A DNA stretch of 64,000 nucleotides from positions 137,479-201,478 of the forward strand of contig CAVXAT010000002.1 of NCBI GenBank assembly GCA_963759805.1, read 5' to 3'. Positions within the stretch are counted from its first letter, which is position 1, and every line of letters starts with the position of its first letter. Positions 1-53,939 of this stretch are shown here, piece by piece. The position numbers and the translations under genes were made by a program. The notes under the pieces were generated by a model, which was given only the letters and a program-made list of their open reading frames with translations, searched no databases and was not told the origin of the DNA. This stretch comes from an uncultured bacterium. GTDB taxonomy: Bacteria > Babelota > Babeliae > Babelales > RVW-14.

Positions 1-728
1 AACCTCATGGATTTTTCTTGGTAACAGGTCCAACAGGATCCGGCAAAACAACAACTTTATATGCCATTCTTTCGGAATTGAATAAACCGGGAATAAACAT
101 TGTTACAATGGAAGATCCGGTTGAGTATGCCGTTCCGGGTATTACACAAAGCCAAGTAAATGACAAAGCAGGCTTTAGTTTCCAAAATGGATTGCGCTGC
201 ATGCTACGCCAGGACCCTGATATTATAATGATTGGTGAAATACGGGATAAAATCACAGCGCAAATTGCAATTGAAGCCTCACTTACCGGACATCTTGTTT
301 TTAGCACGTTGCACACAAACGATGCCGCAGGGGCAGTCACTCGGCTTCTTGATATGGGAGTTGAACCATTTCTCATCAATGCTACGTTGACCGGAGTTTT
401 GGCTCAAAGACTTGCTCGTAAGCTTTGCAATAAATGTAAAAGCGAGACAGAATCTAAAAATCCTGACATAAAAAATCTAAAAACTAATTTTGCAGCACCC
501 GGCTGTGCTGACTGCTTTAATCTTGGGCACAAGGGACGCCTAGGCGTTTTTGAATTATTGGTTTTGGATGATCAGATAAGAGATCTGGTTTTGCAAAAAG
601 CTGCAACAACAAACGTTGTGCAACAGGCGCTAAAAACCGGAATGCAGACATTGATGAATGATGGGCTGGAAAAGGTTAATAGCGGACAAATTTCGCTCGA
701 AGAGTTGTATGCAACTGTAACAGTTTAA
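1..728 (+). CDS. Type II secretion / type IV pilus assembly ATPase (GspE/PilB family), C-terminal part; 5' end is upstream of the window
   Basis: Frame is open from nt 3 (..[15 protein letters not shown], Walker A). Also [22 protein letters not shown] (Asp/Walker B box), [13 protein letters not shown] (His box) and a C-terminal tetracysteine CNKC..CADC. Stop TAA at 726-728. Confidence 0.88.
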
Positions 729-744
729 CGTCGAAACCAAAATT

Positions 745-773
745 AAAAGGCCCGGGTTTCCGGGCCTTTTTTT
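745..773. terminator. Bidirectional rho-independent terminator between convergent genes
   Basis: GGCCCGG (749-755), loop GTTT, CCGGGCC (760-766). Flanked by an A-run upstream and T7 (767-773) downstream. Lies between the + strand ATPase gene and the - strand M23 gene. Confidence 0.75.
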
Positions 774-784
774 ATAAGCTTTGT

Positions 785-2002
785 TTAATAAACTCTTTTA
801 GTCCATTCTATAGGATCAACTGAAATATTTCTTACTCGTAACTCCCAATGTAGGTGGTATCCATTGGCATATCCGGTCATTCCAAGATTACCGATTGGAT
901 TCCCCTTTTTAACTATATCGCCAACATTAATATCTGCAAAATTTTCTAAGTGAAAGTAAAGTGTGAAAACTCCGCAACCATGATCCAAAACAACAGTGTT
1001 GCCCGATATTAAAAAGCGATCTTTTATAATAACTCTTCCAATTTGACTTGCCCAAACTACCGCCTTTGGATTATCTATCAAATCAACCCCACGATGCATA
1101 TATCTCCCCAACTCAGGAGTCATTCTTATCTCTCCAAAAGGCGTTGAAATTCGTTTGACATTTACAGGGAATTCAAATGGCCCATGCCACATTTTTTCTT
1201 TGGGTGACTGCTCAAGCCAACGCACAATTGCTTCGTCCAAAACCTTGGCACTTGCGCTAATCTCTTTTTCTTCCTCAAGTTTTTCCTTTTTCACAGTAAA
1301 TCCGCGCTGATGAGGAAATTGGAATTCAATAATCCGGACTTGCGAATTTAGTTTCAAGTTATTATTTACTAGATCTTCCAAACACGCAGTGAGTTGATAC
1401 TCTGCAGCAGCAGTCTCAGTTTCAATTGGAATAAAACATTCATAAGTTGTTGAGCCTTTGGAATCAGGAAAACATTCATATTTTGCAGATAAAAACTCAA
1501 CTTCAGCTTTTGCCAGTTTTTTGTTTGATCGAATCTTAATATGCAACGTTTTGCCCTGATCAACCTTATAACCGGACTCTATAAATGCCGCCATAAGAGG
1601 GCTGTTGTCAACGCAAAACTCTGTCGACTGTACAGCTTTATTTTTATTAAAACTTGAATCTATAGCATAGACATCAAGCTTATGTTTTCCATCCGAATAC
1701 GTTCTAATGTCTGTTGAGATTGGTATTTCAAATTTCTTCGCTCCAACCTTTTTTACCCCATTGAATTCAACCTCTTTCCCATCAATCAAAACACCAATTG
1801 GGGAAATTTTATAACCGGTATCTGCACAAACCGAGAACTTAAGCTCTTTTGCAAATGCTAAGTCAGTCTCAATTCCGCTAAGAGAAAACTTGGGCGCAGT
1901 GCTGTATGAAAAATATGTGTATATTGAACTTGCAATCCAACCTATTACACAGAAAATAACAATACCGCTGACAACCAATGGAAAACGTAATTTGTTAAAC
2001 AT
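785..2002 (-). CDS. Membrane-anchored M23 (LytM-type) metallopeptidase
   Basis: N-terminal TM helix. C-terminal HRGVDL...GNTVVLDHG...GYANGYHLHWELR matches the M23 HxxxD / HxH signature. Confidence 0.8.
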   Translation of the reverse strand: MFNKLRFPLVVSGIVIFCVIGWIASSIYTYFSYSTAPKFSLSGIETDLAFAKELKFSVCADTGYKISPIGVLIDGKEVEFNGVKKVGAKKFEIPISTDIRTYSDGKHKLDVYAIDSSFNKNKAVQSTEFCVDNSPLMAAFIESGYKVDQGKTLHIKIRSNKKLAKAEVEFLSAKYECFPDSKGSTTYECFIPIETETAAAEYQLTACLEDLVNNNLKLNSQVRIIEFQFPHQRGFTVKKEKLEEEKEISASAKVLDEAIVRWLEQSPKEKMWHGPFEFPVNVKRISTPFGEIRMTPELGRYMHRGVDLIDNPKAVVWASQIGRVIIKDRFLISGNTVVLDHGCGVFTLYFHLENFADINVGDIVKKGNPIGNLGMTGYANGYHLHWELRVRNISVDPIEWTKRVY

Positions 2003-2244
2003 ATCCTACTTTCAGACATAAAATTAGATAAAAAATTAGACAATAACAAACCTAGGTCTATAAAATACATCATTTTTAAAGCTCTTCAAATAAAATTTGA
2101 TAATTAATTTAAAATCAACAGTTTTTATCACTTTTAGCGAATTTGGATCTAAATATTGGGTTAAAAAGCGAAAAAACAACACCCATTTGAATAATAGAAA
2201 ATATTCCCATACAATGTAAGTATAGTTTATGTAACAATAACATT

Positions 2245-3246
2245 TTGTATTTTATAGGAATTAACATGAATTTAAGAAAAATATTTTTAATCACAGCTCT
2301 CTTCACCTCTCCATTTTATTTAATTTATGGAATGGATGACAAAATGGATGACGGAAGGGATGATGAATTCCGTTGTTTTTTAGGAGTTCCACAACCATTA
2401 TTAGAATATGAGGCTATGGAACAATCATCTGATGCAACCCATGAAGATTTGCAGATGCAGACATCTGATGCACAATCTTTGGTGGAAAAAATTAAACACG
2501 AAATCACAACTCTAAATCTTACAGCAATTGGGTCACTGTTGGCATCTGAGCCTGCGGCAAGATTGACCAGCGAACAAAGACGAGAGCTCTATCAAGAAGC
2601 ACTCGGCCGTGAGGAAGAAATTTCAAAATTACTTGAAGACGGAATTTGCATATCAGGTGCAGCTGGCAATATAGAAAGAATCATTAGCTATCTTTATGCA
2701 TTTCAGTTTATTGAAAAATTTGAATTCCCTAGAACGTTATTTACCAATCCACCTTATCATCGCAAAATTCATCCTGAAATTGGGCCCAATGTGCCATTAA
2801 ATTCAGTTCTAGATGCATTAATAAAAAACGAGAAGGAAGGTATATTAGTTTGTTGTTTTCATATTTCAGATTCTGAGATAGCAAAATCTTTGATGTTTAG
2901 AAATAGGGTTGGTGTCAAAGTTGAAATTGTAACCAATCAACAACAGGCCGAGAACATGTCAGCAATTAAACTTTTAATTAGAAGTGGCATCGAGGTGTCA
3001 TGTCCAGCTGGACACCGATTCGAAACCGACCATCATAAATTCATTATATTTAAACGTAATATATTAAATAAATGTCTTGTTTGGCATGGTTCATATAATC
3101 CAACAAATTTCTCTAATACAAGCGCATGGGAAGACGTAACAATAGATGACAATCCAGAAGTACACCAACGCTATTCAGCCAGATTTCTGGAAATTAAGGC
3201 CGCCAGTACACGTATGACAATAGATATGCTGCCCAAAACACACTAG
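2245..3246 (+). CDS. Secreted phospholipase D-like / Nuc-like protein with a single HKD-type motif
   Basis: C-terminal DHHKFIIFKRNILNKCLVWHGSYNPTNFS (HxK...GSxN PLD-superfamily motif, one copy). Signal-like N-terminus MNLRKIFLITALFTSPFYLIYG; the in-frame ATG at 2266 is the more likely start. Confidence 0.6.
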   Translation: MYFIGINMNLRKIFLITALFTSPFYLIYGMDDKMDDGRDDEFRCFLGVPQPLLEYEAMEQSSDATHEDLQMQTSDAQSLVEKIKHEITTLNLTAIGSLLASEPAARLTSEQRRELYQEALGREEEISKLLEDGICISGAAGNIERIISYLYAFQFIEKFEFPRTLFTNPPYHRKIHPEIGPNVPLNSVLDALIKNEKEGILVCCFHISDSEIAKSLMFRNRVGVKVEIVTNQQQAENMSAIKLLIRSGIEVSCPAGHRFETDHHKFIIFKRNILNKCLVWHGSYNPTNFSNTSAWEDVTIDDNPEVHQRYSARFLEIKAASTRMTIDMLPKTH

Positions 3247-3311
3247 ATCTAATTCATGTATATTTTAAATAAAAAAATAAACTTGTATAACTGTATCGGA
3301 AATTTGAACTC

Positions 3312-5111
3312 ATGAAAGAGATTGATAGTAAAAATCTAGAAACACAGATCAAAAATCTTCCCAGAAACTCTGGCGTTTATCTTTTTAAAGATTCTCAGGA
3401 TCTTGTTTTGTATATTGGCAAAGCCAAAAACTTAAAAAGTCGCGTATCAAGTTATTTAAAAAGCGATGACATAAAATCCTACTCACTACGGCAAGAGAGT
3501 GAGCATCTAGATTTTATAGTAACAAAAAATGAACTTGAAGCCATGCTTCTTGAAGCAAAATTAATTCAAACGCATCAACCGAAATTCAATGTACTTTTGA
3601 AAACTGGGCAGCCTTTTTTATGGATTCTAATAAGCCAAAATCTATCATCTGTCACATTACCTGAACTTAAGCTTGTACGTAATCAAAAACAGAAAGGCAC
3701 ATATTTCGGCCCATTTTTAGAAAAAAACTCGGCACGAAAGGTTTATGATTTCCTAATCAAGACATTCAGATTAAAACTGTGCAAAAAAAAGATTCCTAGC
3801 GGCTGCCTTGCGTACCACATGGGAATCTGTGCAGGAAAATGTAGACCTGATTTTGATAAAAACAGTTATCTGGAAAGAATCGAGCTTGCAAAGTTTGCAC
3901 TAAAGAACAATCATGCCGAATTTTTAAAACATTTAAAAAGTTTAATCAAAGAACATAACAAAAAGATGGAATTTGAAAAGGCTCGTCAACTTCACAGTTA
4001 TATGGCTGCATTTGAGAGAGTTTTTGATATTCTTGAAACTAAGCCAATAACAAAATTCAAACTCGATGAAAAAGATATCTGGTTTTTAACAGAAGACAAG
4101 TCTGCACTATTTTTATTTAAAGAGAAAAACAGTGTTCTTATAAAAAAAGAGGCTTTTTACTTTCCCAAAGAGTATCAATTGCCAGCCCAGTTTCTGGCTC
4201 CATTAGAACAAACCCTTCGACAGGCTCAGGGTGAGCGCAGAGAGCACCTTGAAGAACCCGCTCGTGGCGCCTGCCCGCCGAAGCTAAACCTAAGCGAAGG
4301 CTGGGAGCTTGTCGAACCATTTCAATGGGTTCTTAAGGCTCAGAAGAGGGCTCAGAAAAACTCTAATATCAAAGAATCTAGTTATCTAGATTTTTTTGAA
4401 AGTTACTATCGAACTTATCCCGCCCCATCAATCATTTTAGTTAATTTTGAAATTGATAATGCAACCCAAAAACTTTATCAAAAATTCATAAAATCTTGGC
4501 ATAAGAAAAGTTATGACGTCTCAATAATAATGAAGCCCGAATCCGGCCACTTTGCCAATCTGATCAAGTTAGCAAAAATTCATGTAGATGCAGAAATATC
4601 AAAACAGGCCACAATTCCAAAAGCACTGAAAAGTCTACTAAAACTCCCAATTGAGCCCCACACTATTGATTGTTTTGATATTTCACATAAACAGGGCATG
4701 TACATGGTTGGATCATGTGTACGTTTTGCCGATAACATCCCGGACAAAAAAAATTTTAGGCATTTTTATATAAAAAGCATAGAACAACAAAATGACTATG
4801 CCGCGTTGCATGAAATTGTTCAACGCAGGTACAGAAATACAAACGAACTTCCCGATTTAATCTTAATTGATGGAGGCAAGGGGCAACTCAACGCCGTCCA
4901 GAAACTATTTCCACAGGCAGAATTTGCAAGCTTGGCAAAAAAAGAAGAAACTGTTTTTTCTAAACGAATTCCTGAGGGTAAAAAACTGAATTTAAAAAGT
5001 TTTGTGGGACAAACATTAACCGCTCTTAGAGATTATGCACACCACTTTGCGATAAGTTTTCATCGCAAAGTGGAACACAAAAATTCATTTGATATTAACT
5101 CAATCGATTGA
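3312..5111 (+). CDS. uvrC: Excinuclease ABC subunit C
   Basis: GIY-YIG N-terminus (GVYLFKD..VLYIGKAKNLKSRVSSY). Endonuclease domain (IDCFDISH...LILIDGGKGQLN...RDYAHHFAISFHRK). Carries a GC-rich in-frame insert at about 4205-4345. The protein ends about 10 aa after FHRK, so no (HhH)2 tail is present. Confidence 0.92.
   Translation: MKEIDSKNLETQIKNLPRNSGVYLFKDSQDLVLYIGKAKNLKSRVSSYLKSDDIKSYSLRQESEHLDFIVTKNELEAMLLEAKLIQTHQPKFNVLLKTGQPFLWILISQNLSSVTLPELKLVRNQKQKGTYFGPFLEKNSARKVYDFLIKTFRLKLCKKKIPSGCLAYHMGICAGKCRPDFDKNSYLERIELAKFALKNNHAEFLKHLKSLIKEHNKKMEFEKARQLHSYMAAFERVFDILETKPITKFKLDEKDIWFLTEDKSALFLFKEKNSVLIKKEAFYFPKEYQLPAQFLAPLEQTLRQAQGERREHLEEPARGACPPKLNLSEGWELVEPFQWVLKAQKRAQKNSNIKESSYLDFFESYYRTYPAPSIILVNFEIDNATQKLYQKFIKSWHKKSYDVSIIMKPESGHFANLIKLAKIHVDAEISKQATIPKALKSLLKLPIEPHTIDCFDISHKQGMYMVGSCVRFADNIPDKKNFRHFYIKSIEQQNDYAALHEIVQRRYRNTNELPDLILIDGGKGQLNAVQKLFPQAEFASLAKKEETVFSKRIPEGKKLNLKSFVGQTLTALRDYAHHFAISFHRKVEHKNSFDINSID
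4213..4318. repeat. GC-rich palindromic repeat element, in-frame inside uvrC
   Basis: Local GC is far above the flanks. Inverted repeat TTCGACAGGCTC (4216-4227) / GAGCTTGTCGAA (4305-4316). Motifs CCCTTCGA, CTCAGGGTGAGCG and CCCGCTCGTGG are shared with 26041-26115; GCCTGCCCGCCGAAG is shared with 12834-12848. Confidence 0.6.
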
Positions 5112-8694: not shown

Positions 8695-9504
8695 TCAGCG
8701 ACCATCAATTTCAAATTCTTTTTTCAAATAACTTTGTTCAATAGGGGTAAAGGCACACCATGCCAAAATCAATTGAACCGGATCACCATCTTTGTTCAAG
8801 TGAGGCAGATTTACAATATCATAAAATTCATTCATTCTGTTTTGTTTTTTGAGATATTTAAGAATCAAAATTAATAGAACTTGATTAAAATCTGTAACAT
8901 TACGACATATCATTAAAGGGACAGCAGGTATTCCCGCCCAAGTGACCACATATTTGCCATCAGGACTCCATGCCCCCGATTTCCTCCGGCCGTTTGATGT
9001 TACTTCGTATAGATCAAATGATGCCCCTTCAATAATATCTCCCTCGGGATTCAATGCTACCGAGCACATCGAATCTTTATACGATGCAAGCGTTCTGCAT
9101 TCTCCTGTTTCTACATTCCATTCCCTTGCCGTTCCATCAGATAATACCCCTGCAATATATTCACCATCAGGACTCCATACTACTGAGCTCATCCGTCTTT
9201 CACTCTCAGCACCCAAGGTTTTGTGCAACACAAAAAAATCGGGTAATAAGCTCGCTGCCAAACCTTTTGGCACTTCAGGATCTTCACAATACTTTTCAAA
9301 AAAATTTAATTTTTCAAAAAAGTTTAACGTTTCGACATCCCCTGCAATCAATTTTTCTATAAAAGCGTCTGTTTTCACAATACTCGCAACACATGCAGTA
9401 CAACTTTCCTGCAATTTTGGCATAGCAACCAAAACTGTTTTTTGAGAGCAAGTGATCAAGGGTAAAATCAAAAATAATTTTGTTGTTTTAAATAAATTTT
9501 TCAT
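8695..9504 (-). CDS. Secreted WD40-repeat protein, short paralog of 9501..10604
   Basis: Signal peptide. WSPDG(E/K)Y WD-type repeats. A 151-nt N-terminal segment (9237-9387) differs at only 2 positions from 10292-10442. Lacks one repeat and the C-terminal extension of its neighbour. Confidence 0.7.
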   Translation of the reverse strand: MKNLFKTTKLFLILPLITCSQKTVLVAMPKLQESCTACVASIVKTDAFIEKLIAGDVETLNFFEKLNFFEKYCEDPEVPKGLAASLLPDFFVLHKTLGAESERRMSSVVWSPDGEYIAGVLSDGTAREWNVETGECRTLASYKDSMCSVALNPEGDIIEGASFDLYEVTSNGRRKSGAWSPDGKYVVTWAGIPAVPLMICRNVTDFNQVLLILILKYLKKQNRMNEFYDIVNLPHLNKDGDPVQLILAWCAFTPIEQSYLKKEFEIDGR

Positions 9505-10604
9505 AAATTCTGGAGCACAACACTTACCATCTGGGGCACATCAAAACCCTTACCATTAAATACTTCTAGTGAGTATCGAGTTATCGAGCCATCTTGAAAA
9601 CACTGTTCAAGCTCAGGGTCAATACCAAATCTTTCTTTCAGATAACGCTGTTCAATAGGAGTAAAGGCATACCATGCTAAAATCAACTGAATCTGATCGG
9701 CCTCTCTATTTAAGTGGGGCTCATTTACAATTTTATAAAATTCATTCATTCGATTGTGTTTTTTAAGATATTGAAGAACTAAAAATAATAGAATTTGATT
9801 AAAATCTGCAACTTCACGCCATATCGTTAAAGGAGTACCGTCTCGCCAACTGACCAAATATTCGCCATCAGGACTCCATGCTCCCGATATCCCCTGATGT
9901 TTATTCCAGCCATTTGATCTTACTTTGTATAGATCAAATAATGTGCTGTGAAGAGTTTTCCACTCATGACTAAATGATACCCAAATCGAATCTTTATACG
10001 ATGCAAGCGTTCTGAATTCTCCTGTTTCTACATTCCATTCTCTTGCCGTTCCATCATATAATACCCCTGCAATACATTTACCATCAGGACTCCATGCTAC
10101 TGACTTAACCCCACAACCATGCACTGTAAACACTCTGCATTCTCTTGATGCTACATGCCATATGCTTACTATTCCATCAAATGAGGGAATTTTAAATGAT
10201 GCACTGGCAATATATTTACCATCAGGACTCCATGCTACTGATGACGTCCACGTTGCAACCTCTACAGCCAAGATTTTGTGTTGCACAAAGAAATCGGGTA
10301 ATAAGCTCGCTGCCAAACCTTTTGGCGCTTCAGGATCTTCACAATACTTTTCAAAAAAATTTAATTTTTCAAAAAAGTTTAACGTTTCGACATCCCCTGA
10401 AATCAATTTTTCTATAAAAGCGTCTGTTTTCACAATACTCGCGATTCGCGCAGCGCAACTTTCCTGCAAAGTCAACATTCCAAATAAAATTGTTTTTTGA
10501 AAGCAAGCGATCAGGAATAAAATTAAAAATAATTTTGTTGTTTTTACTAAATTGTTCATAAATAATCCCAAAGCTAAGTAAAAGTTAAGTAATAGAATAA
10601 ACAT
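9501..10604 (-). CDS. Secreted WD40-repeat protein
   Basis: Repeated AWSPDGKYIAS / VAWSPDGKCIAG / AWSPDGEYLVS..W motifs. Signal-like N-terminus; the likely real start is MNNLVKTTKLF at 10559. ATGA overlap with the downstream paralog. Confidence 0.75.
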   Translation of the reverse strand: MFILLLNFYLALGLFMNNLVKTTKLFLILFLIACFQKTILFGMLTLQESCAARIASIVKTDAFIEKLISGDVETLNFFEKLNFFEKYCEDPEAPKGLAASLLPDFFVQHKILAVEVATWTSSVAWSPDGKYIASASFKIPSFDGIVSIWHVASRECRVFTVHGCGVKSVAWSPDGKCIAGVLYDGTAREWNVETGEFRTLASYKDSIWVSFSHEWKTLHSTLFDLYKVRSNGWNKHQGISGAWSPDGEYLVSWRDGTPLTIWREVADFNQILLFLVLQYLKKHNRMNEFYKIVNEPHLNREADQIQLILAWYAFTPIEQRYLKERFGIDPELEQCFQDGSITRYSLEVFNGKGFDVPQMVSVVLQNL

Positions 10605-10706
10605 AATACAACTAAGTTGGGAGAGTTTAGCAACAAAAACGAAAAAGTAAAATTTAGATTATGTTTTTATATTTTAAATTGATAGCTTTAAAATTACGCT
10701 CTATTT

Positions 10707-11852
10707 TTATCTTCCAAGCACCTCTTGCCATGTAGGCAAAACCATATCATCAATCATTATCTCATTGATCATGCGCAGCGGCAACTCCGACAATGATTGT
10801 GCCGGGGAGTTCTCGCCTAGGCGCGGATGTTGGACGAGGGCTAGCGTTAACATTTGACGTTTTTGAAGTTTTCTTTCTTGCGTAATTCTTTGTGCAGGCA
10901 AATTTGTCCATATTACTACTCTAACCTCAGATCCATTAAATCCATTCTGTGTAACAATCATGGCCGCTATTTGCATCCCATCTGGGCTAAATGCTATTTT
11001 GAATACGTAACCATCTCCATATTTAAATGTATGAATGCAAGTCTTACTCTGCATATCCCACAACTCAATTTTTCCATCATTGTCTCTATTCTCACATGCG
11101 ATAGCAAAAAGACTTCCATCCGAACTGAATGCTACTGCATTTGATGTTGCATAACAATGTCCCACCACGGGCCATAATTCAAACAGTGGAATACATGTGT
11201 CTTTACCCAAATCCAATAAACCAAGACCTTTTAAAAGGCGCGACTCACCTAAAAGGCACGGCCCACAATAAACCAAAATATTATCATACAAATTGAATGC
11301 TAACGCATCTACAGAACCACTGCATTTAATCGTATGTATACGTTCCATAGTCGTCAAATTCCATACACTAACTTCTCCAGAATCATCTCCGGAGGCCAAA
11401 ATGTTACCGTCTGAGTTGAATGCTAACGCTTCTACACAGCCACTAACTTCAAATTTATGTATATTCTTGCCCAACTTCAGATTCCATAATGCAACTTCAC
11501 GCTGACCTCCAGAGGCCAAAATGTTACCATTGGGACTGATTGCCAATGCCCATGCTAAACAATCAATTTCAAGATCACGAGTGCAAATCCTAGACTGCAT
11601 ATTCCAAAATTTGAAATGATCATACCGTTGCCCCCATTTCCATTTAAACTCATGAACCAAAAATTCTCCCCCATGACTGGTTGCCAACGCAGTCAAAGGC
11701 GCACCGCCTTTGTAGCAACCTATATTAACTAAAGTCTCATCTATTACACTCTCATCTATGCCTGGTGCTGCAGCCGCCGCCGACAAATTAGCTGCATAAA
11801 ATAAAACATGTGCAAACAGTATTGTTTTAATGCAATTTTTGATATTCTCCAC
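10707..11852 (-). CDS. Secreted WD40-repeat protein with GC-rich C-terminal tail
   Basis: Signal peptide (..ANLSAAAAAPG). Repeats ISPNGNILASGG..VALWNL, FNSDGNILASGD..VSVWNL, FSSDGSLFAIA..IELWDM, FSPDGMQIAA. The tail LALVQHPRLGENSPAQSLSELPLRMINEI is encoded by unusually GC-rich DNA. Confidence 0.8.
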   Translation of the reverse strand: MENIKNCIKTILFAHVLFYAANLSAAAAAPGIDESVIDETLVNIGCYKGGAPLTALATSHGGEFLVHEFKWKWGQRYDHFKFWNMQSRICTRDLEIDCLAWALAISPNGNILASGGQREVALWNLKLGKNIHKFEVSGCVEALAFNSDGNILASGDDSGEVSVWNLTTMERIHTIKCSGSVDALAFNLYDNILVYCGPCLLGESRLLKGLGLLDLGKDTCIPLFELWPVVGHCYATSNAVAFSSDGSLFAIACENRDNDGKIELWDMQSKTCIHTFKYGDGYVFKIAFSPDGMQIAAMIVTQNGFNGSEVRVVIWTNLPAQRITQERKLQKRQMLTLALVQHPRLGENSPAQSLSELPLRMINEIMIDDMVLPTWQEVLGR

Positions 11853-12672
11853 TGCCTTGCCCCTTCTTCCAAATGGTTATATTTCCATCAGAACATCCGG
11901 CCGCTACTTGCATACCATCTTGATTTAACGCCACTGCAGTTACCCACCTAGAACCACATTTGAACACATTTATGCATGCCCTTGCCTTCAGATCCCATAA
12001 CTCAACTTTTCCTAATTGATCTACAAAAGCCAAAAAGTTACCATCTGAGGTGAACGCTGCTGCTTGATCGGAAGGGTATACTGTTTGACTCACTTCCAAC
12101 ACAGAATTACATGTATTTGCCTTCAAATCTAACAGCTTAACAGCTCGGGCACTCACACAAAAAGCTAAAATGTTGCCATCTGGGTTGAACGCTAATGCGC
12201 ATACCCAATCTTTACACTCAAACTTATGAATAAGTGTGTCTGTATTCAGATTCCATACCTCAACATTTCCGCCTTCCCCAATGGCCAAAGTTTTACCATC
12301 CGGACTGAAAGCTACTGAGAATACATAATTTTTGCAGGGAAAAGTAAATATATTTTTTTTCTCGTTTAAATCGACCAAATCAACCTTGCCATTAGATCCC
12401 ACAGCCAAACCGCCACCTCCCGGACTAAATGCTAGCGCACGTGCAGAACCAACATATCCAAAATCACAAAAACGTCCATCCGACAAAAATTTCCATAATA
12501 GAGCATTCTCATCATGGGCAAAAGCCAAATCTTTCTCATTCGGACTAAAGGCTAATGCATGGACTGTCGCCTCCCCATACACCGGATCAGCGCAGGCAGC
12601 ATTGAGATTAGCAGGCCCAAACAGAACAAATAAAAACAACCCAGTTTTAATAAAGTTTTTGATACTCTTCAT
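11827..12672 (-). CDS. Secreted WD40-repeat protein
   Basis: Signal peptide (..ANLNAACA). Repeats FSPNEKDLAFA, FSPGGGGLAVG, FSPDGKTLAIG..VEVWNL, FNPDGNILAF, FTSDGNFLAF..VELWDL, LNQDGMQVAAG..ITIW. 26-nt overlap with the next WD40 gene. Confidence 0.8.
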   Translation of the reverse strand: MKSIKNFIKTGLFLFVLFGPANLNAACADPVYGEATVHALAFSPNEKDLAFAHDENALLWKFLSDGRFCDFGYVGSARALAFSPGGGGLAVGSNGKVDLVDLNEKKNIFTFPCKNYVFSVAFSPDGKTLAIGEGGNVEVWNLNTDTLIHKFECKDWVCALAFNPDGNILAFCVSARAVKLLDLKANTCNSVLEVSQTVYPSDQAAAFTSDGNFLAFVDQLGKVELWDLKARACINVFKCGSRWVTAVALNQDGMQVAAGCSDGNITIWKKGQGSGEYQKLH

Positions 12673-23103: not shown

Positions 23104-24369
23104 CTATTTTACCCGTCTTTGTTTAGCTGATAACTTTCTATGCTTAACTGAAGCCTTTTCATACCCCTGCTCAATTTTACCCAGCAATGTTTTTAGCTCT
23201 GTTTTATATTTCTTCAAATTTGGAGTTTCGTTACAATATTTAAAGATTTTCACACCACTTTTAGGATCAAGCATTTTTTTATTCATCAGAAGCCTAAATT
23301 GCATAGTATCCAACACATTCCCGGATAAATCACTGTCAAAAGAGTCACAATCCTTGTACGCCTCCAAATCTTTTGATGCTGGATTGTATGATATACCGCC
23401 AAATATTTTATTGAGGAGTGATTTACCACATGGGCCATATACAAAGCCTCCAGGGGCACACCGATATGCAACCTCATCAACTAATTTTTGGGGAACAAAA
23501 ATTTGAAGCAAAAGACCCGTTTTTTCCTTTTCATAATCACCAAGCAGATTATTAAGTTCCTTAATCAATTCTCGATATTGATCGAAATATTTATTCATCT
23601 TGAAAGCCTGAAACGCCTGACTCACTAAATCACACACATCCACCTCTGTTACATTGCTTGAATTAATAAAATAACAAAAGGAGCATTCCCCTCCCCAATC
23701 CAAAGCCGTATTACCAAACAATGTTGAATTTACCGAAAGTAAATATTTTTTGACATGAGGCTGTGTGTCAAACCATACCAAATGGTTTGTTAGCTCGCCA
23801 TTGTCCATATATTGCTTTATAAAGTTTTCAACCGACCCAAATTTACTAAAATCTTTATCCGGAAACCTAAGCATCACAAAATCATGTAAAATTTTTTTAT
23901 AAGCAATTTTATAAAGCCCTTGATAAATATCCTGAGGCAATGTAAATTCACGCTTTTGGCCATGATAAAAAACATAATAATCATCTTTAAATTCAATTTC
24001 CTTTTCAATGATTTCTCTGAATAATTCCTTAAAAAAATTGGAGCCTAATTCATTTACTCTTTTGCTAAAATGCCAATTCAGATTTTCATAAAGGGTATGA
24101 TTGGAAAGATATGCCAACGTCTGGGTCTGCTTTGGCTTATCAATGCTATTTTTTAAGCCCAATTTTTGATAAGCATCGTCAATTATATTCGTGACATTCA
24201 AGTCTTGGCCCGGACAATATGCAGCAAAAAGCGATGCCTGAAGAGACAATACATTCAAGTCTTGGCCCGGACAATATGCAGCAAAAAGCGATGCCTGAAG
24301 AGACAATAATATTAATGCTATAAATAAGAATCTATTTTTTAGATTTACAACCACCATTTTAACCCCCAT
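23104..24369 (-). CDS. Hypothetical secreted protein with duplicated leader segment
   Basis: Long ORF with a hydrophobic N-terminus. 19 aa (LSLQASLFAAYCPGQDLNV) occur twice because of a perfect 57-bp tandem duplication. No recognisable catalytic motif. Confidence 0.5.
   Translation of the reverse strand: MGVKMVVVNLKNRFLFIALILLSLQASLFAAYCPGQDLNVLSLQASLFAAYCPGQDLNVTNIIDDAYQKLGLKNSIDKPKQTQTLAYLSNHTLYENLNWHFSKRVNELGSNFFKELFREIIEKEIEFKDDYYVFYHGQKREFTLPQDIYQGLYKIAYKKILHDFVMLRFPDKDFSKFGSVENFIKQYMDNGELTNHLVWFDTQPHVKKYLLSVNSTLFGNTALDWGGECSFCYFINSSNVTEVDVCDLVSQAFQAFKMNKYFDQYRELIKELNNLLGDYEKEKTGLLLQIFVPQKLVDEVAYRCAPGGFVYGPCGKSLLNKIFGGISYNPASKDLEAYKDCDSFDSDLSGNVLDTMQFRLLMNKKMLDPKSGVKIFKYCNETPNLKKYKTELKTLLGKIEQGYEKASVKHRKLSAKQRRVK
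24194..24307. repeat. Perfect 57-bp tandem duplication (2 copies) inside CDS 23104..24369
   Basis: 24194-24250 and 24251-24307 are identical by manual alignment (ACATTCAAGTCTTGGCCCGGACAATATGCAGCAAAAAGCGATGCCTGAAGAGACAAT). Confidence 0.95.
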
Positions 24370-25227: not shown

Positions 25228-26298
25228 CTACTTTTTATTACCCGCGATATCTTTGCCAACCCTGTCCACAGCATGTCCACCAAACTGATTCCGCAGCATA
25301 GCAACAACTTTTGTCGCATAATTTCCGCCATCTTGCCTGGAATCAGCACGAATCTGCAGTGCACGTTCAATTAGATCAACAGGAACGTTCTGCTCTTTAG
25401 CCTCGTCAAGCATCCATCGTCCTGTTTTGTTTTCGCCTATCTTCCCGGAGATTTCCGTTAAATTTTGATCATGTTCAAAAATGTTATGGGCTAGCTCTAA
25501 AATCCACGATCTTATAATCGAGCCATGATTCCATACGTCAGAAATTTTTTCAAGATCCAAGTCTTTATATTTGCCTTGTTTGAGAAGATGGAAACCTTCT
25601 GCGTAAGCCTGCAGTAATGCATACTCAATTCCGTTATGAATCATCTTAACATAATGACCGGCCCCGGAAGGCCCCATGTATGCATATCCCTGTGGAGCAG
25701 CAATGGCTTTAAAAATTGTCTCAAGATGCTCAAAAACTTTTTTATCTCCACCAATCATAAGAGAGAATCCAATATCTTTGCCATGTAGTCCACCGGACGT
25801 ACCACAATCAACGTAATTTATTTTTTGGGATATTAAATTTTGATATCGACGAACCGTATCTTTAAAATTGCTGTTCCCGCCGTCTATAATTATATCGTCC
25901 GGCTTTAGATATGGAGTCAGTTCGTTAATAACGTTATCGACTGTATCACCCGCCGGAACCATAAGCCAAAAAATATTTACCTGCGTTACACCATTCGAAG
26001 TAAATTTTATGCCCGCATGGTTCGATACATTTTTTTTGGCCGCTCGCCCTGAGTGCCGAGCTTTGCGAGGCGTATCGAAGGGTGCGGCCTGCAAAAAACA
26101 CTCACCACGAGCGGGCACGTTTGGTTCATTAACTATGCCAAGATCTTGCAGCTTTGCCACAGTTTTAACACCGACATCAGCTGCTAATCTTAAATTTTTT
26201 TCATTACTATCAAAACCCCAAACCTCATGCCCATATTTTAAAAGTCTGTATGCAATAGCATGCCCCATCCGGCCAAGACCAATTACGCTTATTTTCAT
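25228..26298 (-). CDS. gnd: 6-phosphogluconate dehydrogenase (decarboxylating, short Gnd/YqeC-like form) with an in-frame GC-rich insert
   Basis: MKISVIGLGRMGHAIAYRL (Rossmann GxGxxG), WLMVPAG, GGNSNF, GTSGG, and GAGHYVKMIHNGIEYALLQAYAEG. An extra segment ..PARGECFLQAAPFDTPRKARHSGRAAKK.. is encoded by 26037-26118. Confidence 0.82.
   Translation of the reverse strand: MKISVIGLGRMGHAIAYRLLKYGHEVWGFDSNEKNLRLAADVGVKTVAKLQDLGIVNEPNVPARGECFLQAAPFDTPRKARHSGRAAKKNVSNHAGIKFTSNGVTQVNIFWLMVPAGDTVDNVINELTPYLKPDDIIIDGGNSNFKDTVRRYQNLISQKINYVDCGTSGGLHGKDIGFSLMIGGDKKVFEHLETIFKAIAAPQGYAYMGPSGAGHYVKMIHNGIEYALLQAYAEGFHLLKQGKYKDLDLEKISDVWNHGSIIRSWILELAHNIFEHDQNLTEISGKIGENKTGRWMLDEAKEQNVPVDLIERALQIRADSRQDGGNYATKVVAMLRNQFGGHAVDRVGKDIAGNKK
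26037..26118. repeat. GC-rich palindromic repeat element, in-frame inside gnd
   Basis: On the gene's sense strand: CCCGCTCGTGG (26115-26105), CCCTTCGA (26082-26075) and CTCAGGGCGAGCG (26053-26041). All three are shared with the uvrC insert. Confidence 0.6.
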
Positions 26299-53762: not shown

Positions 53763-53854
53763 GGAGAGATGGCTGAGTGGTTGAAAGCGACCGCCTCGAA
53801 AGCGGTTATTCCGGGAAACTGGAATCGTGGGTTCGAATCCCACTCTCTCCACCA
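53763..53854 (+). tRNA. tRNA-Ser (anticodon CGA), CCA encoded
   Basis: Manual cloverleaf: acceptor GGAGAGA/TCTCTCC; anticodon stem ACCGC/GCGGT with loop CTCGAAA; long variable arm (TATTCCGGGAAACTGGAATC); T arm GTGGG-TTCGAAT-CCCAC; 3' ACCA. Confidence 0.9.
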
Positions 53855-53868
53855 GTCTTCGCTGCTTC

Positions 53869-53939
53869 GCAGCTTCGTCTGGCAGGAAAGCAGCTTCGTC
53901 TGGCAAGCCATCCAATTTAGGCTAGTTACTAGCTTGCCA
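53869..53939. repeat. GC-rich direct repeat plus hairpin immediately 3' of tRNA-Ser
   Basis: GCAGCTTCGTCTGGCA occurs at 53869-53884 and 53890-53905 (period 21). Nested inverted repeats follow: TGGCAAGC (53901-53908) / GCTTGCCA (53932-53939), and GCTAG/CTAGC. Confidence 0.6.

What the first reader, a model, noticed from the sequence alone, without database searches (positions are those of the whole stretch)
26030..26125. Second in-frame copy of the GC-rich repeat, inside 6-phosphogluconate dehydrogenase
The gnd-like ORF (minus strand) has an extra segment, ..NVPARGECFLQAAPFDTPRKARHSGRAAKKNV.., between the Rossmann strand region and the WLMVPAG block. It is encoded by a GC-rich patch. On the sense strand the patch contains CCCGCTCGTGG (26115-26105), CCCTTCGA (26082-26075) and CTCAGGGCGAGCG (26053-26041). 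These are the same three motifs seen in the uvrC insert, though in a different order, consistent with a palindromic or permuted element. Two unrelated housekeeping enzymes carrying related inserts with no stop codons argues for a mobile or recombinogenic repeat rather than chance.
Basis: partly seen in the sequence, partly recalled or inferred. Interest (0 to 1): 0.62.

Follow-up and report, generated by a model that had tools for sequence, protein, structure and literature searches.

The report
Nested hairpin repeat inside gnd gene
The 6-phosphogluconate dehydrogenase gene of a Babeliales (Dependentiae/TM6) bacterium carries, in frame, two nested copies of a small GC-rich hairpin repeat; this repeat is scattered through genomes of the group and regularly brackets a tiny GIY-YIG nuclease gene that may be what moves it.

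Summary
The gnd ORF (25228-26298, minus strand) has 53 codons where 17 aligned Dependentiae orthologs (61-87% identity) have about four.

The GC-rich core (26012-26115) is two nested copies, in opposite orientation, of one repeat unit: ACC-CTTCGATAC-[variable perfect hairpin]-ACTCAGGGYGAGCGG. A covariance model built from 103 metagenomic copies scores them E=2e-10 and E=2e-5. It finds a third copy in uvrC (E=2e-4) and no other significant copy in the window.

Most sampled copies are intergenic and many form inverted doublets. Nine of 142 lie in frame in long ORFs, including ValRS, FtsK and DnaG. AlphaFold puts the Gnd insert in a disordered loop (pLDDT <50) of an otherwise confident fold.

New lead: a 95-aa stand-alone GIY-YIG (UPF0213) gene is bracketed by inverted units in 6 of 7 independently fetched loci; the seventh has only the upstream unit. 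This resembles a REPtron with a different nuclease.

Verdict: an RPE-like or intragenic-REP-like insertion of an apparently undescribed repeat family. The nuclease link is inferred, not shown.

The parts
25228..26298 (-). Host gene: short-chain decarboxylating 6-phosphogluconate dehydrogenase (Gnd/YqeC type), 356 aa, intact
   Evidence: Pfam NAD_binding_2 1.3e-34 and 6PGD 6.2e-23. PDB 6vpb 1e-63. All 52 invariant columns of a 112-sequence alignment are present. Synteny recD2-zwf-gnd-cyclase is kept in relatives.
25981..26139 (-). Extra in-frame segment (53 codons, GIVNEPNV...SNGVTQ) where orthologs have about 4 codons; net insertion about 147 nt
   Evidence: Protein alignment A1, hand comparison with L001/L004 DNA and coordinates. 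AlphaFold pLDDT <50 for residues 61-98 and 100-104, between helix 51-56 and strand 109-112.
26012..26115 (+). Outer repeat unit: CCCGCATGG-TTCGATAC-ATTTTT[59 nt]AAAAAC-ACTC-ACCACGAGCGGG. Its variable hairpin encloses the inner unit. The basal stem is TGGT/ACCA instead of CCCT/AGGG, which is a compensatory change.
   Evidence: cmsearch with R1, filters off: 29.7 bits, E=2.4e-5, full model length.
26039..26088 (-). Inner repeat unit: GCACC-CTTCGATAC-[GCCTCGCAAAGCTCGGC]-ACTCAGGGCGAGCGG, read as PFDTPRKARHSGRA in the gnd frame
   Evidence: cmsearch with R1: 50.1 bits, E=2.2e-10, full model length.
4207..4239 (+). uvrC unit 1 (short-loop form ACCCTTCGACAGGCTCAGGGTGAGCG, read as TLRQAQGER)
   Evidence: R1: 26 bits, E=1.8e-4. 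nhmmer profile of 122 cross-phylum units: E=4.7e-9.
4257..4323 (-). uvrC unit 2, inverted relative to unit 1 (CCGCTCGTGG...GAGCTTGTCGAACCA), interrupted by a secondary insertion
   Evidence: The relative L256 has the uninterrupted unit CCGCTCGTGGTGAGCTTGTCGAACCA at the same place. Protein alignment A5 agrees. Not scored by R1, so the assignment rests on sequence comparison.
4268..4304 (+). 37-nt hairpin-type module (CGCCTGCCCGCCGAAGCTAAACCTAAGCGAAGGCTGG) replacing one T inside uvrC unit 2; adds ACPPKLNLSEGW
   Evidence: DNA alignment of the window against L256. P0122 and P0123 lack these 12 residues.

Best explanation
SHOWN. The segment is a lineage-specific, in-frame insertion of selfish repeat DNA into gnd. 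Its core is two nested copies, in opposite orientation, of a roughly 50-nt hairpin unit.
- Unit anatomy: a conserved basal stem (CCCT/AGGG or a compensated variant), conserved internal-loop strands (TCGATAC and ACTC), a freely varying perfect hairpin, and a GAGCGG tail.
- The inner unit sits in the apical loop of the outer unit's variable hairpin.
- Units of this family are common in AT-rich contigs; those carrying a name are Candidatus Babeliales. Most sampled copies are intergenic and many form inverted doublets. A minority lie in frame inside housekeeping genes.

INFERRED.
- Insertions land anywhere, and those inside essential genes survive only if they keep the frame, contain no stop and fall in a permissive surface loop. 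That filter is easy to pass, because five of the six frames of a unit are stop-free in 70-80% of copies.
- In Gnd the insert lies in the loop entering Rossmann strand beta4. This is the end of the sheet away from the cofactor, and the insert is predicted to be disordered, so the enzyme probably still works.
- Once trapped in a gene, a copy cannot be lost by imprecise deletion. That may be why the only three units in this window are intragenic.

INFERRED, about 40% likely. Mobility depends on a 95-aa stand-alone GIY-YIG (UPF0213) nuclease acting in trans. Its gene is bracketed by inverted units, like a RAYT in a REPtron. Cleavage at extruded hairpins, followed by copying from another unit, would also explain the nesting of units inside the loops of older units.

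The confidence given (0.8) is for the shown part plus the tolerated-insertion inference. The nuclease step is rated separately at about 0.4.
For: Insertion:
- 17 of 17 aligned orthologs lack the segment.
- Syntenic relatives L001 and L004 have an uninterrupted site.

Family membership:
- R1 hits at E=2e-10, 2e-5 and 2e-4, with no other significant hit in 64 kb.
- The model was built from 103 distinct copies found elsewhere.

Hairpin:
- Variable-stem pairs are 97-99% paired, with 27-42 double changes per pair and almost no G.U pairs. This points to a DNA-level palindrome.

Distribution:
- 111 of 142 matches lie in contigs of GC 0.29-0.42. Named examples are Candidatus Babeliales (L078; P0248 and P0306).
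- Nine of 142 units lie in frame in long ORFs, including ValRS (L162, L241), FtsK (L145) and DnaG (L159).

Tolerance:
- pLDDT is <50 only in the insert and the C-terminal tail, and >90 for most of the rest of the protein.
- All invariant family residues are present.

Relative age:
- The uvrC insert is shared with P0122 and P0123. P0123 lies on the same 55,083-nt contig as the uninterrupted gnd P0005.

Nesting recurs:
- A 37-nt module sits inside uvrC unit 2.

Nuclease link:
- The GIY-YIG ORF is the most recurrent family among unit-selected loci (7 loci, flanked on both sides in 5).
- In 7 contexts fetched by protein homology alone, unit(-) lies 2-66 nt upstream in 7 of 7 and unit(+) 2-17 nt downstream in 6 of 7.
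- In L246 and L249 no other units occur in 20 kb.
Against: - No GIY-YIG gene is in the window. Relatives L001, L004 and L256 have almost no units. So there is no sign of a currently active partner in this lineage.
- No clear target-site duplication or terminal signature was found at the gnd site. About 43 nt of AT-rich insert flank is unexplained.
- Predicted DNA folding of the whole insert is only modestly better than shuffles (z = -1.7 and -1.25).
- Free doublets are arranged (+)(-), whereas the nuclease cassette is (-)gene(+). Doublets are therefore not simply gene-deleted cassettes.
- The short-loop form in other phyla showed no GIY-YIG or other enriched neighbour.
- Expression and activity of the interrupted Gnd are untested.
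Confidence: 0.8

Rival explanations
1. The units spread without a dedicated enzyme, by host recombination, gene conversion or template switching at hairpins during replication. The GIY-YIG gene is a separate selfish or homing gene that merely uses the repeats as landing sites, as some IS elements target REPs.
For: - No nuclease gene lies in the window or in close relatives.
- The cross-phylum short-loop units have no enriched neighbouring gene.
- Cassette orientation (-)gene(+) differs from free doublets (+)(-).
- Published CGTC REPs also 'apparently lack a dedicated transposase', and REPs are known IS targets (PMC3733652).
Against: - The stereotyped spacing of inverted units on both sides of the gene in 6 of 7 contexts, sometimes as the only units in 20 kb, fits element ends better than a landing site.
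- A gene inserted into a pre-existing free doublet would be expected to give (+)gene(-), which is not what is seen.
Confidence: 0.3
2. The hairpins act at the RNA level, for example as an mRNA stabiliser, processing site or translational pause inside gnd, and are kept for that reason.
For: - Many intergenic copies sit just after stop codons, for example after rpiB and after the GIY-YIG gene, as REPs do.
- Di Nocera et al. argue that many REPs function as RNA.
Against: - G.U pairs are almost absent from the covarying stem (1 per about 100 sequences per pair).
- Units occur in both orientations relative to genes.
- 17 of 17 orthologs do without the insert.
Confidence: 0.07
3. The segment is an adaptive, lineage-specific protein loop, such as a new interaction surface, that only resembles repeats by chance or through exaptation.
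For: The frame is intact and the gene is otherwise conserved.
Against: - Strong model matches to non-coding copies elsewhere.
- Predicted to be disordered.
- The peptide is simply one of five open frames of the unit.
- In other genes the units are read in different frames and strands (TLRY.., PFDT.., SARPEC.., PLALS..).
Confidence: 0.05
4. Assembly artefact: a chimeric join introduced foreign GC-rich sequence into the MAG contig.
For: - This exact Gnd is recorded on only one contig, 226,291 nt long.
- The exact-gene look-up found no second place.
Against: - The insert is in frame and free of stops, with gnd sequence continuing on both sides.
- It matches a family native to Babeliales, including AT-rich variable stems.
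- The sister uvrC insert is confirmed in independent assemblies.
Confidence: 0.03

Closest known systems
Rickettsia palindromic elements (RPE; Ogata et al. 2000, as summarised in PMC10969869 and PMC3733652)
   Same: Palindromic repeats in an AT-rich genome of an intracellular or host-dependent lineage. They are often inserted in frame into unrelated housekeeping genes that stay intact, and are predicted to be compatible with the protein fold. No transposase is known for them.
   Different: - Different phylum.
- The units here are about 50 nt, with GC-rich conserved strands and a hypervariable hairpin. They often form doublets or nest; RPEs are described as about 150 bp.
- Sequence relatedness to RPE-1 to RPE-10 was not tested.
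- Here a candidate nuclease partner exists.
REP / REPIN elements with RAYT transposases (REPtrons)
   Same: Short hairpin repeats, mostly extragenic, commonly as inverted doublets. A small nuclease-type gene is flanked by inverted repeats or doublets. Solo copies far outnumber the gene.
   Different: - The flanked gene is a GIY-YIG (UPF0213) protein, not an HUH/Y1 RAYT.
- No GTAG head.
- The conserved part is the internal loop and basal stem, while the upper stem varies freely.
- The elements nest inside one another.
GTAG- and CGTC-tagged REPs, including intragenic REPs in replication and repair genes (Di Nocera et al. 2013, PMC3733652)
   Same: That paper documents REPs entirely inside ORFs, including excinuclease ABC genes, tRNA synthetases and DnaE, as singles, dimers or clusters encoding 20-82 aa. 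It states that CGTC REPs lack a dedicated transposase. The present uvrC, ValRS and DnaG targets echo that list.
   Different: - The unit has neither tag, nor the 8-9 bp stem, 4-5 nt loop and CCA tail architecture described there.
- Repeats that I judge to be CGTC-type from that description (GGATTCCCGCCTTCGCGGGAATGAC) occur beside, and are distinct from, the short-loop units in some loci.
GC clusters and double-hairpin elements of fungal mitochondrial genomes (from memory, not checked here)
   Same: GC-rich palindromic mobile elements in very AT-rich genomes. They are found in intergenic DNA and occasionally in frame in coding sequence, and they nest.
   Different: They are organellar and unrelated in sequence, and no bracketed GIY-YIG gene of this kind is known to me.
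Free-standing or intron-encoded GIY-YIG homing endonucleases (I-TevI, Seg proteins)
   Same: A GIY-YIG catalytic domain in a selfish-DNA context. Spread by cleavage followed by copying from a donor is the mechanism proposed here.
   Different: - The protein here is the bare 95-aa catalytic domain with no DNA-binding extension.
- NCBIfam group I intron endonuclease scores 17-18 bits against a cut-off of 56.
- Its closest solved relatives are UPF0213 proteins of unknown function.

Membership tests
Decarboxylating 6-phosphogluconate dehydrogenase, short (about 300 aa) type (host gene) | N-terminal Rossmann NAD(P)-binding domain plus 6PGD C-terminal domain, with family-invariant residues | tested here: met
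   Pfam PF03446 and PF00393. PDB 6vpb 1e-63. All invariant columns are present.
Babeliales hairpin-unit family (defined here by model R1) | Full-length match to ACC-CTTCGATAC-[hairpin]-ACTCAGGGYGAGCGG, with a paired basal stem and a paired variable stem | tested here: met
   26039-26088(-): 50.1 bits. 26012-26115(+): 29.7 bits. 4207-4239(+): 26 bits.
Rickettsia palindromic elements (RPE) | Palindromic repeat inserted in frame in ORFs that remain intact | tested here: met
Rickettsia palindromic elements (RPE) | Sequence similarity to an RPE-1 to RPE-10 consensus, or occurrence in Rickettsia | not tested
The host is Dependentiae, not Rickettsiales.
REP / REPIN-RAYT | Short imperfect palindromes, commonly as inverted doublets | tested here: met
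   Inverted doublets with a spacer of roughly 20-30 nt are common. The hairpin covaries.
REP / REPIN-RAYT | Unpaired GTAG (or CGTC) tag at one end of a 20-40 nt stem-loop (PMC3733652) | tested here: not met
   Unit ends are ACCCTTCGA and GAGCGG, with no such tag in the 103-copy alignment. The architecture differs from the description.
REP / REPIN-RAYT | Associated HUH/Y1 tyrosine transposase (RAYT) flanked by the repeats | tested here: inconclusive
   Clustering of ORFs from about 105 unit-bearing AT-rich loci gave no recurrent transposase; the top family is a GIY-YIG protein. Not every ORF was scanned against Pfam.
MITE | Terminal inverted repeats plus a target-site duplication, derived from a parent IS | tested here: inconclusive
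   There is inverted symmetry, but no clear duplication at gnd. A possible 2-3 nt TGG repeat flanks the uvrC nested piece. A 27-nt direct repeat flanks one cassette. No DDE parent was found.
GIY-YIG homing endonuclease (group I intron type) | GIY-YIG domain plus DNA-binding domain; NCBIfam TIGR01453 above its cut-off | tested here: not met
   17-18 bits against a cut-off of 56; the protein is only 95 aa. It belongs to UPF0213 by PDB 1zg2 and 1ywl and has Pfam GIY-YIG at 5.6e-18.
Intein or intron | Splicing motifs and sufficient size (intein of at least about 130 aa; group I/II intron structure) | tested here: not met
   The insert is 53 aa with no Pfam hit. The Rfam scan of related loci found nothing above gathering score; the window itself was not scanned against Rfam.

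The most novel reading that the evidence does not exclude
The hairpin units are the cis sites of a previously unrecognised nuclease-repeat partnership. In it, a bare 95-aa UPF0213/YhbQ-type GIY-YIG nuclease, bracketed by inverted units, mobilises or generates the units by cutting extruded hairpins, with repair then copying a donor unit. This would be a REPtron analogue built on a different nuclease fold.

It would give a function to a widespread 'unknown function' family. It would also offer a candidate answer to how transposase-less intragenic palindromes, such as RPEs and CGTC REPs, move.
Probability: 0.38. Interest if true: 0.82.

Novelty: new variant of a known kind. Interest (0 to 1): 0.66.

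Why it matters
In-frame palindromic repeats in housekeeping genes are best known from Rickettsia (RPEs), where the mobilising mechanism is still unknown. Here the same phenomenon appears in another host-dependent phylum (Dependentiae), with an apparently undescribed family whose anatomy can be read precisely. The family has conserved loop strands, a hypervariable perfect hairpin and nesting inside older copies.

The family comes with a concrete, testable candidate enzyme. That makes an old question, what moves transposase-less REP-like elements, directly approachable by biochemistry on a 95-aa protein and a 50-nt DNA.

Practical consequences:
- These units inflate and fragment protein families.
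- They create spurious ORFs (PFDKLRANG, LRQAQGER, VRPELVEG-type peptides).
- They may break metagenomic assemblies, so a model for them is useful for annotation.

The near-identity of the short-loop core across Proteobacteria, Chloroflexota and cyanobacteria is itself unexplained.

Tried and rejected
- The generic repeat finder did not link the two inserts. Pairwise local alignment was not significant, because the modules are permuted. Module-level and model-based tests were needed.
- RNA folding of the whole region gave z = -0.97. DNA folding of the cores gave z = -1.7 and -1.25. Thermodynamics alone does not prove structure; covariation does.
- An outer CCGC/GCGG helix was proposed and rejected, at 57% paired.
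- Rfam gave nothing above gathering score on related loci, only weak sub-threshold hits to RF02901 and RF03530, which are probably repeat-contaminated.
- Literature string searches for unit DNA and its peptides returned nothing relevant. Searches for Dependentiae plus palindromic or repetitive returned nothing relevant. Searches for UPF0213/YhbQ/COG2827 or GIY-YIG plus RAYT returned nothing on repeats.
- Membership of the CGTC/GTAG REP families was rejected on architecture.
- Intein, intron and assembly artefact were considered and rejected (see membership test and rivals).
- Exact-gene look-ups of the window's Gnd and UvrC found no retrievable contig, so the rest of this genome (a 226-kb contig) could not be searched for more copies or for the nuclease.
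- Guilt-by-association among 120 loci from other phyla found no partner gene.
Full report
**1. What is in the sequence**

The minus-strand ORF 25228-26298 (356 aa) is a short-type decarboxylating 6-phosphogluconate dehydrogenase. It has Pfam NAD_binding_2 and 6PGD domains, and its best solved relative is 6vpb at 1e-63. In that alignment, query residues 1-34 match chain residues 1-34 and query residue 108 matches chain residue 66, which leaves about 42 residues unaccounted for.

As exact matches they occur only there and in the uvrC patch at 4212-4267. A fourth shared word, TCGAACCAT, has one additional occurrence in the window. The patch is GC-rich, up to 0.65 in 80 nt against 0.36 overall.

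A plain local alignment of the two patches is not significant. They nevertheless share eight 8-mers against 0.5 expected from composition-matched shuffles, and only 2 of 5000 shuffles reached that number.

**2. It is an insertion**

The best protein hits are Dependentiae/Babeliales Gnd proteins of 262-331 aa. In an alignment with 17 of them (61-87% identity), all have about four residues (ANYT, TKNV) between KLQDL and N[IV]FWLMVPAG. The window has 53 residues there, corresponding to 25981-26139.

Syntenic loci of the closest relatives (ATP synthase - recD2 - zwf - gnd - cyclase) have an uninterrupted site and no comparable GC patches. Other orthologs carry different GC-type inserts in other loops (P0017, P0006/P0007).

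**3. What the insert is**

It returned the short-loop form CTTCGACARGCTCAGGGYGARCG in Beta-, Alpha- and Gammaproteobacteria, Chloroflexota, cyanobacteria and one Candidatus Babeliales MAG. Its stems covary: GGGC/GCCC, TGGT/ACCA, TGCT/AGCA and GCCCT/AGGGC.

The Babeliales copy (L078) showed a long-loop variant, and this is the form found in gnd. It gave 142 matches, 111 of them in contigs of GC 0.29-0.42.

The 103 distinct AT-rich copies align cleanly as ACC-CTTCGATAC-[11-35 nt hairpin]-ACTCAGGGYGAGCGG. In the variable stem, four pairs are 97-99% paired, with 27-42 double (compensatory) changes each and essentially no G.U pairs. The basal CCCT/AGGG stem is invariant, and a proposed outer helix is not supported. 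The lack of wobble pairs argues for a DNA-level palindrome rather than an RNA structure.

A covariance model (R1) was run over the whole window without filters and gave three significant hits:

| Coordinates | Strand | Bits | E-value | Location |
|---|---|---|---|---|
| 26039-26088 | - | 50.1 | 2e-10 | gnd, inner unit |
| 26012-26115 | + | 29.7 | 2e-5 | gnd, outer unit |
| 4207-4239 | + | 26 | 2e-4 | uvrC |

The second hit is a complete unit whose variable hairpin (TTTTT...AAAAA) encloses the first. So the gnd core is two nested units in opposite orientation. The outer unit has TGGT/ACCA where the consensus has CCCT/AGGG, which means three compensated pairs.

**4. The uvrC copy**

UvrC (3312-5111) is 599 aa, against about 520-535 aa for most Dependentiae orthologs.

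- The insert (unit, 17-nt spacer, inverted unit) is shared with relatives P0122 and P0123 at 86% identity. It is absent from P0125, P0126 and P0128-P0132.
- Other lineages (P0138, P0146, P0150) carry different repeat-like inserts in the same linker.
- The window alone has 12 extra residues inside the second unit. At DNA level, 37 nt replace a single T of the otherwise intact unit CCGCTCGTGGTGAGCTTGTCGAACCA seen in L256. This is a second case of nesting.
- P0123 and the uninterrupted Gnd P0005 are on the same 55,083-nt contig, so the gnd insertion is the younger event.
- R1 finds no other units in about 60 kb of close relatives. In the window all three significant units are intragenic.

**5. 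Intragenic copies elsewhere**

Among the 142 sampled units, nine lie in frame in ORFs of at least 600 nt, with at least 150 nt of open frame on both sides. Examples:

- A whole inverted doublet in ValRS (L241 and L162). In L162 the spacer is further expanded by a tandem repeat.
- A single unit in FtsK (L145).
- A single unit in DnaG (L159).

The units are read in several frames and on both strands (TLRY.., PFDT.., SARPEC.., PLALS..). Five of the six frames are stop-free in 70-80% of copies, and the sixth always contains TGA. In-frame survivors are therefore expected from purifying selection alone.

**6. Effect on the protein**

AlphaFold2, using 112 homologs, gives mean pLDDT 85 and pTM 0.80. 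pLDDT is >90 for most of the fold. It is <50 with no secondary structure for residues 61-98 and 100-104, between helix 51-56 and strand 109-112.

From the standard Rossmann topology (established knowledge), a loop entering a beta-strand lies on the side of the sheet opposite the dinucleotide site. Neighbouring loops vary in length among orthologs (P0002, P0101 and P0115). All family-invariant residues are present. I infer that the insertion is tolerated and probably neutral. Activity was not tested.

**7. A candidate partner**

ORFs from the unit-bearing AT-rich loci were clustered. The most recurrent family is a 95-aa GIY-YIG protein, found in 7 loci by tblastn, with units on both sides in 5 of them.

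This was tested independently. Homologs were found by protein search; where named they are Candidatus Babeliales. They have Pfam GIY-YIG at 5.6e-18 and belong to UPF0213 by PDB 1zg2 and 1ywl. Their contigs were fetched without regard to repeats, giving seven different genomic contexts.

- R1 finds unit(-) 2-66 nt upstream in 7 of 7 contexts and unit(+) 2-17 nt downstream in 6 of 7.
- In L246 and L249 these are the only units in 20 kb.
- In L246 the inverted symmetry extends about 68 nt beyond the units.
- In L247 a 27-nt direct repeat flanks the cassette.

This is the REPtron layout with a different nuclease. It does not prove mobilisation. Free doublets have the opposite arrangement, (+)(-). 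No such gene is in the window. No partner gene was found near the short-loop units of other phyla.

**8. Comparison with the literature**

- RPEs are described as about 150-bp palindromic elements frequently inserted in frame in Rickettsia genes (PMC10969869).
- Di Nocera et al. (PMC3733652) describe GTAG- and CGTC-tagged REPs. These include intragenic copies in excinuclease, tRNA-synthetase and polymerase genes, and the paper notes that CGTC REPs lack a dedicated transposase.
- The present unit has neither tag nor that architecture.
- Nothing in Rfam reached gathering score on the related loci scanned.
- No paper in the searchable library contains the unit strings, their peptides, or a UPF0213-repeat link.

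**9. Verdict**

- The gnd segment is an RPE-like, intragenic-REP-like insertion of an apparently undescribed, modular, self-nesting hairpin repeat family of Babeliales.
- The family is related at core-motif level to a cross-phylum repeat.
- The enzymology is open, with a specific GIY-YIG candidate.

Main limits:
- Only 64 kb of this genome could be read.
- No experimental data exist.

Noticed in passing
L246 9902-10348; L247 9940-10349; L248 9913-10349; L249 9924-10341; L251 4945-5348; L252 4935-5352; also L176 1804-2295 and L244 1385-1970: A 95-aa stand-alone GIY-YIG (UPF0213) gene is bracketed by inverted hairpin units in many different genomic contexts. This is a REPtron-like cassette with a non-RAYT nuclease.
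   Followed up: yes
window 53855-53926, downstream of tRNA-Ser(cga) at 53763-53854: A GC-rich stretch with CAGCTTCGTCTGGCA repeated twice directly follows the tRNA. It resembles the 'CTTCG' type long hairpins seen inside some units and the 37-nt piece nested in uvrC.
   Followed up: no
window 24194-24307, inside ORF 23104-24369 (-): A perfect 57-nt tandem duplication gives an in-frame 19-aa duplication (..LSLQASLFAAYCPGQDLNV x2) near the N-terminus of a hypothetical protein.
   Followed up: no
window 8695-12672: A cluster of paralogous minus-strand ORFs with extensive internal direct repeats (families D1-D8, 62-100% identity). They look like repeat-domain proteins, possibly beta-propeller, but were not scanned against Pfam.
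   Followed up: no
P0017, P0006 and P0007 (Gnd orthologs, alignment A1): Other Dependentiae Gnd proteins carry different GC-type peptide inserts. P0017 has a 33-aa insert (SSHLVYGAAPKGDGSSRLRQGFDVQASSPRARL) in the loop before IIDGGNS. P0006 and P0007 have C-terminal VAPAFAPEELRRAGDS... extensions. This suggests further repeat families decorating proteins in this phylum.
   Followed up: no
L162 (ValRS ORF 212-3307) and L241: Orthologous ValRS genes carry a whole inverted doublet in frame at the same site. In L162 the spacer is expanded by a tandem repeat of about 39 nt encoding (NSIHSIQCAAQNP)n.
   Followed up: partly
L006-L125 (genome scan loci): The short-loop core CTTCGACARGCTCAGGGYGARCG is near-identical in Proteobacteria, Chloroflexota and cyanobacteria. 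It is often paired with CCGTTCG-NNN-TGAGCYTGTCGAA-NNN' partners whose stems covary, and it sometimes lies next to CGTC-type REPs (GGATTCCCGCCTTCGCGGGAATGAC). No associated gene was found and the cross-phylum conservation is unexplained.
   Followed up: partly
L130 1421-2392: An IS110-like transposase ORF (identified by eye, not scanned) sits next to the GIY-YIG cassette. The cassette is inverted relative to the otherwise identical neighbourhood in L176, which indicates local rearrangement around the cassette.
   Followed up: no
window uvrC linker (residues about 290-355) and orthologs P0138, P0146, P0150: The UvrC inter-domain linker has been hit independently by different repeat-like inserts in several Dependentiae lineages, so it is a permissive hot spot.
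   Followed up: partly
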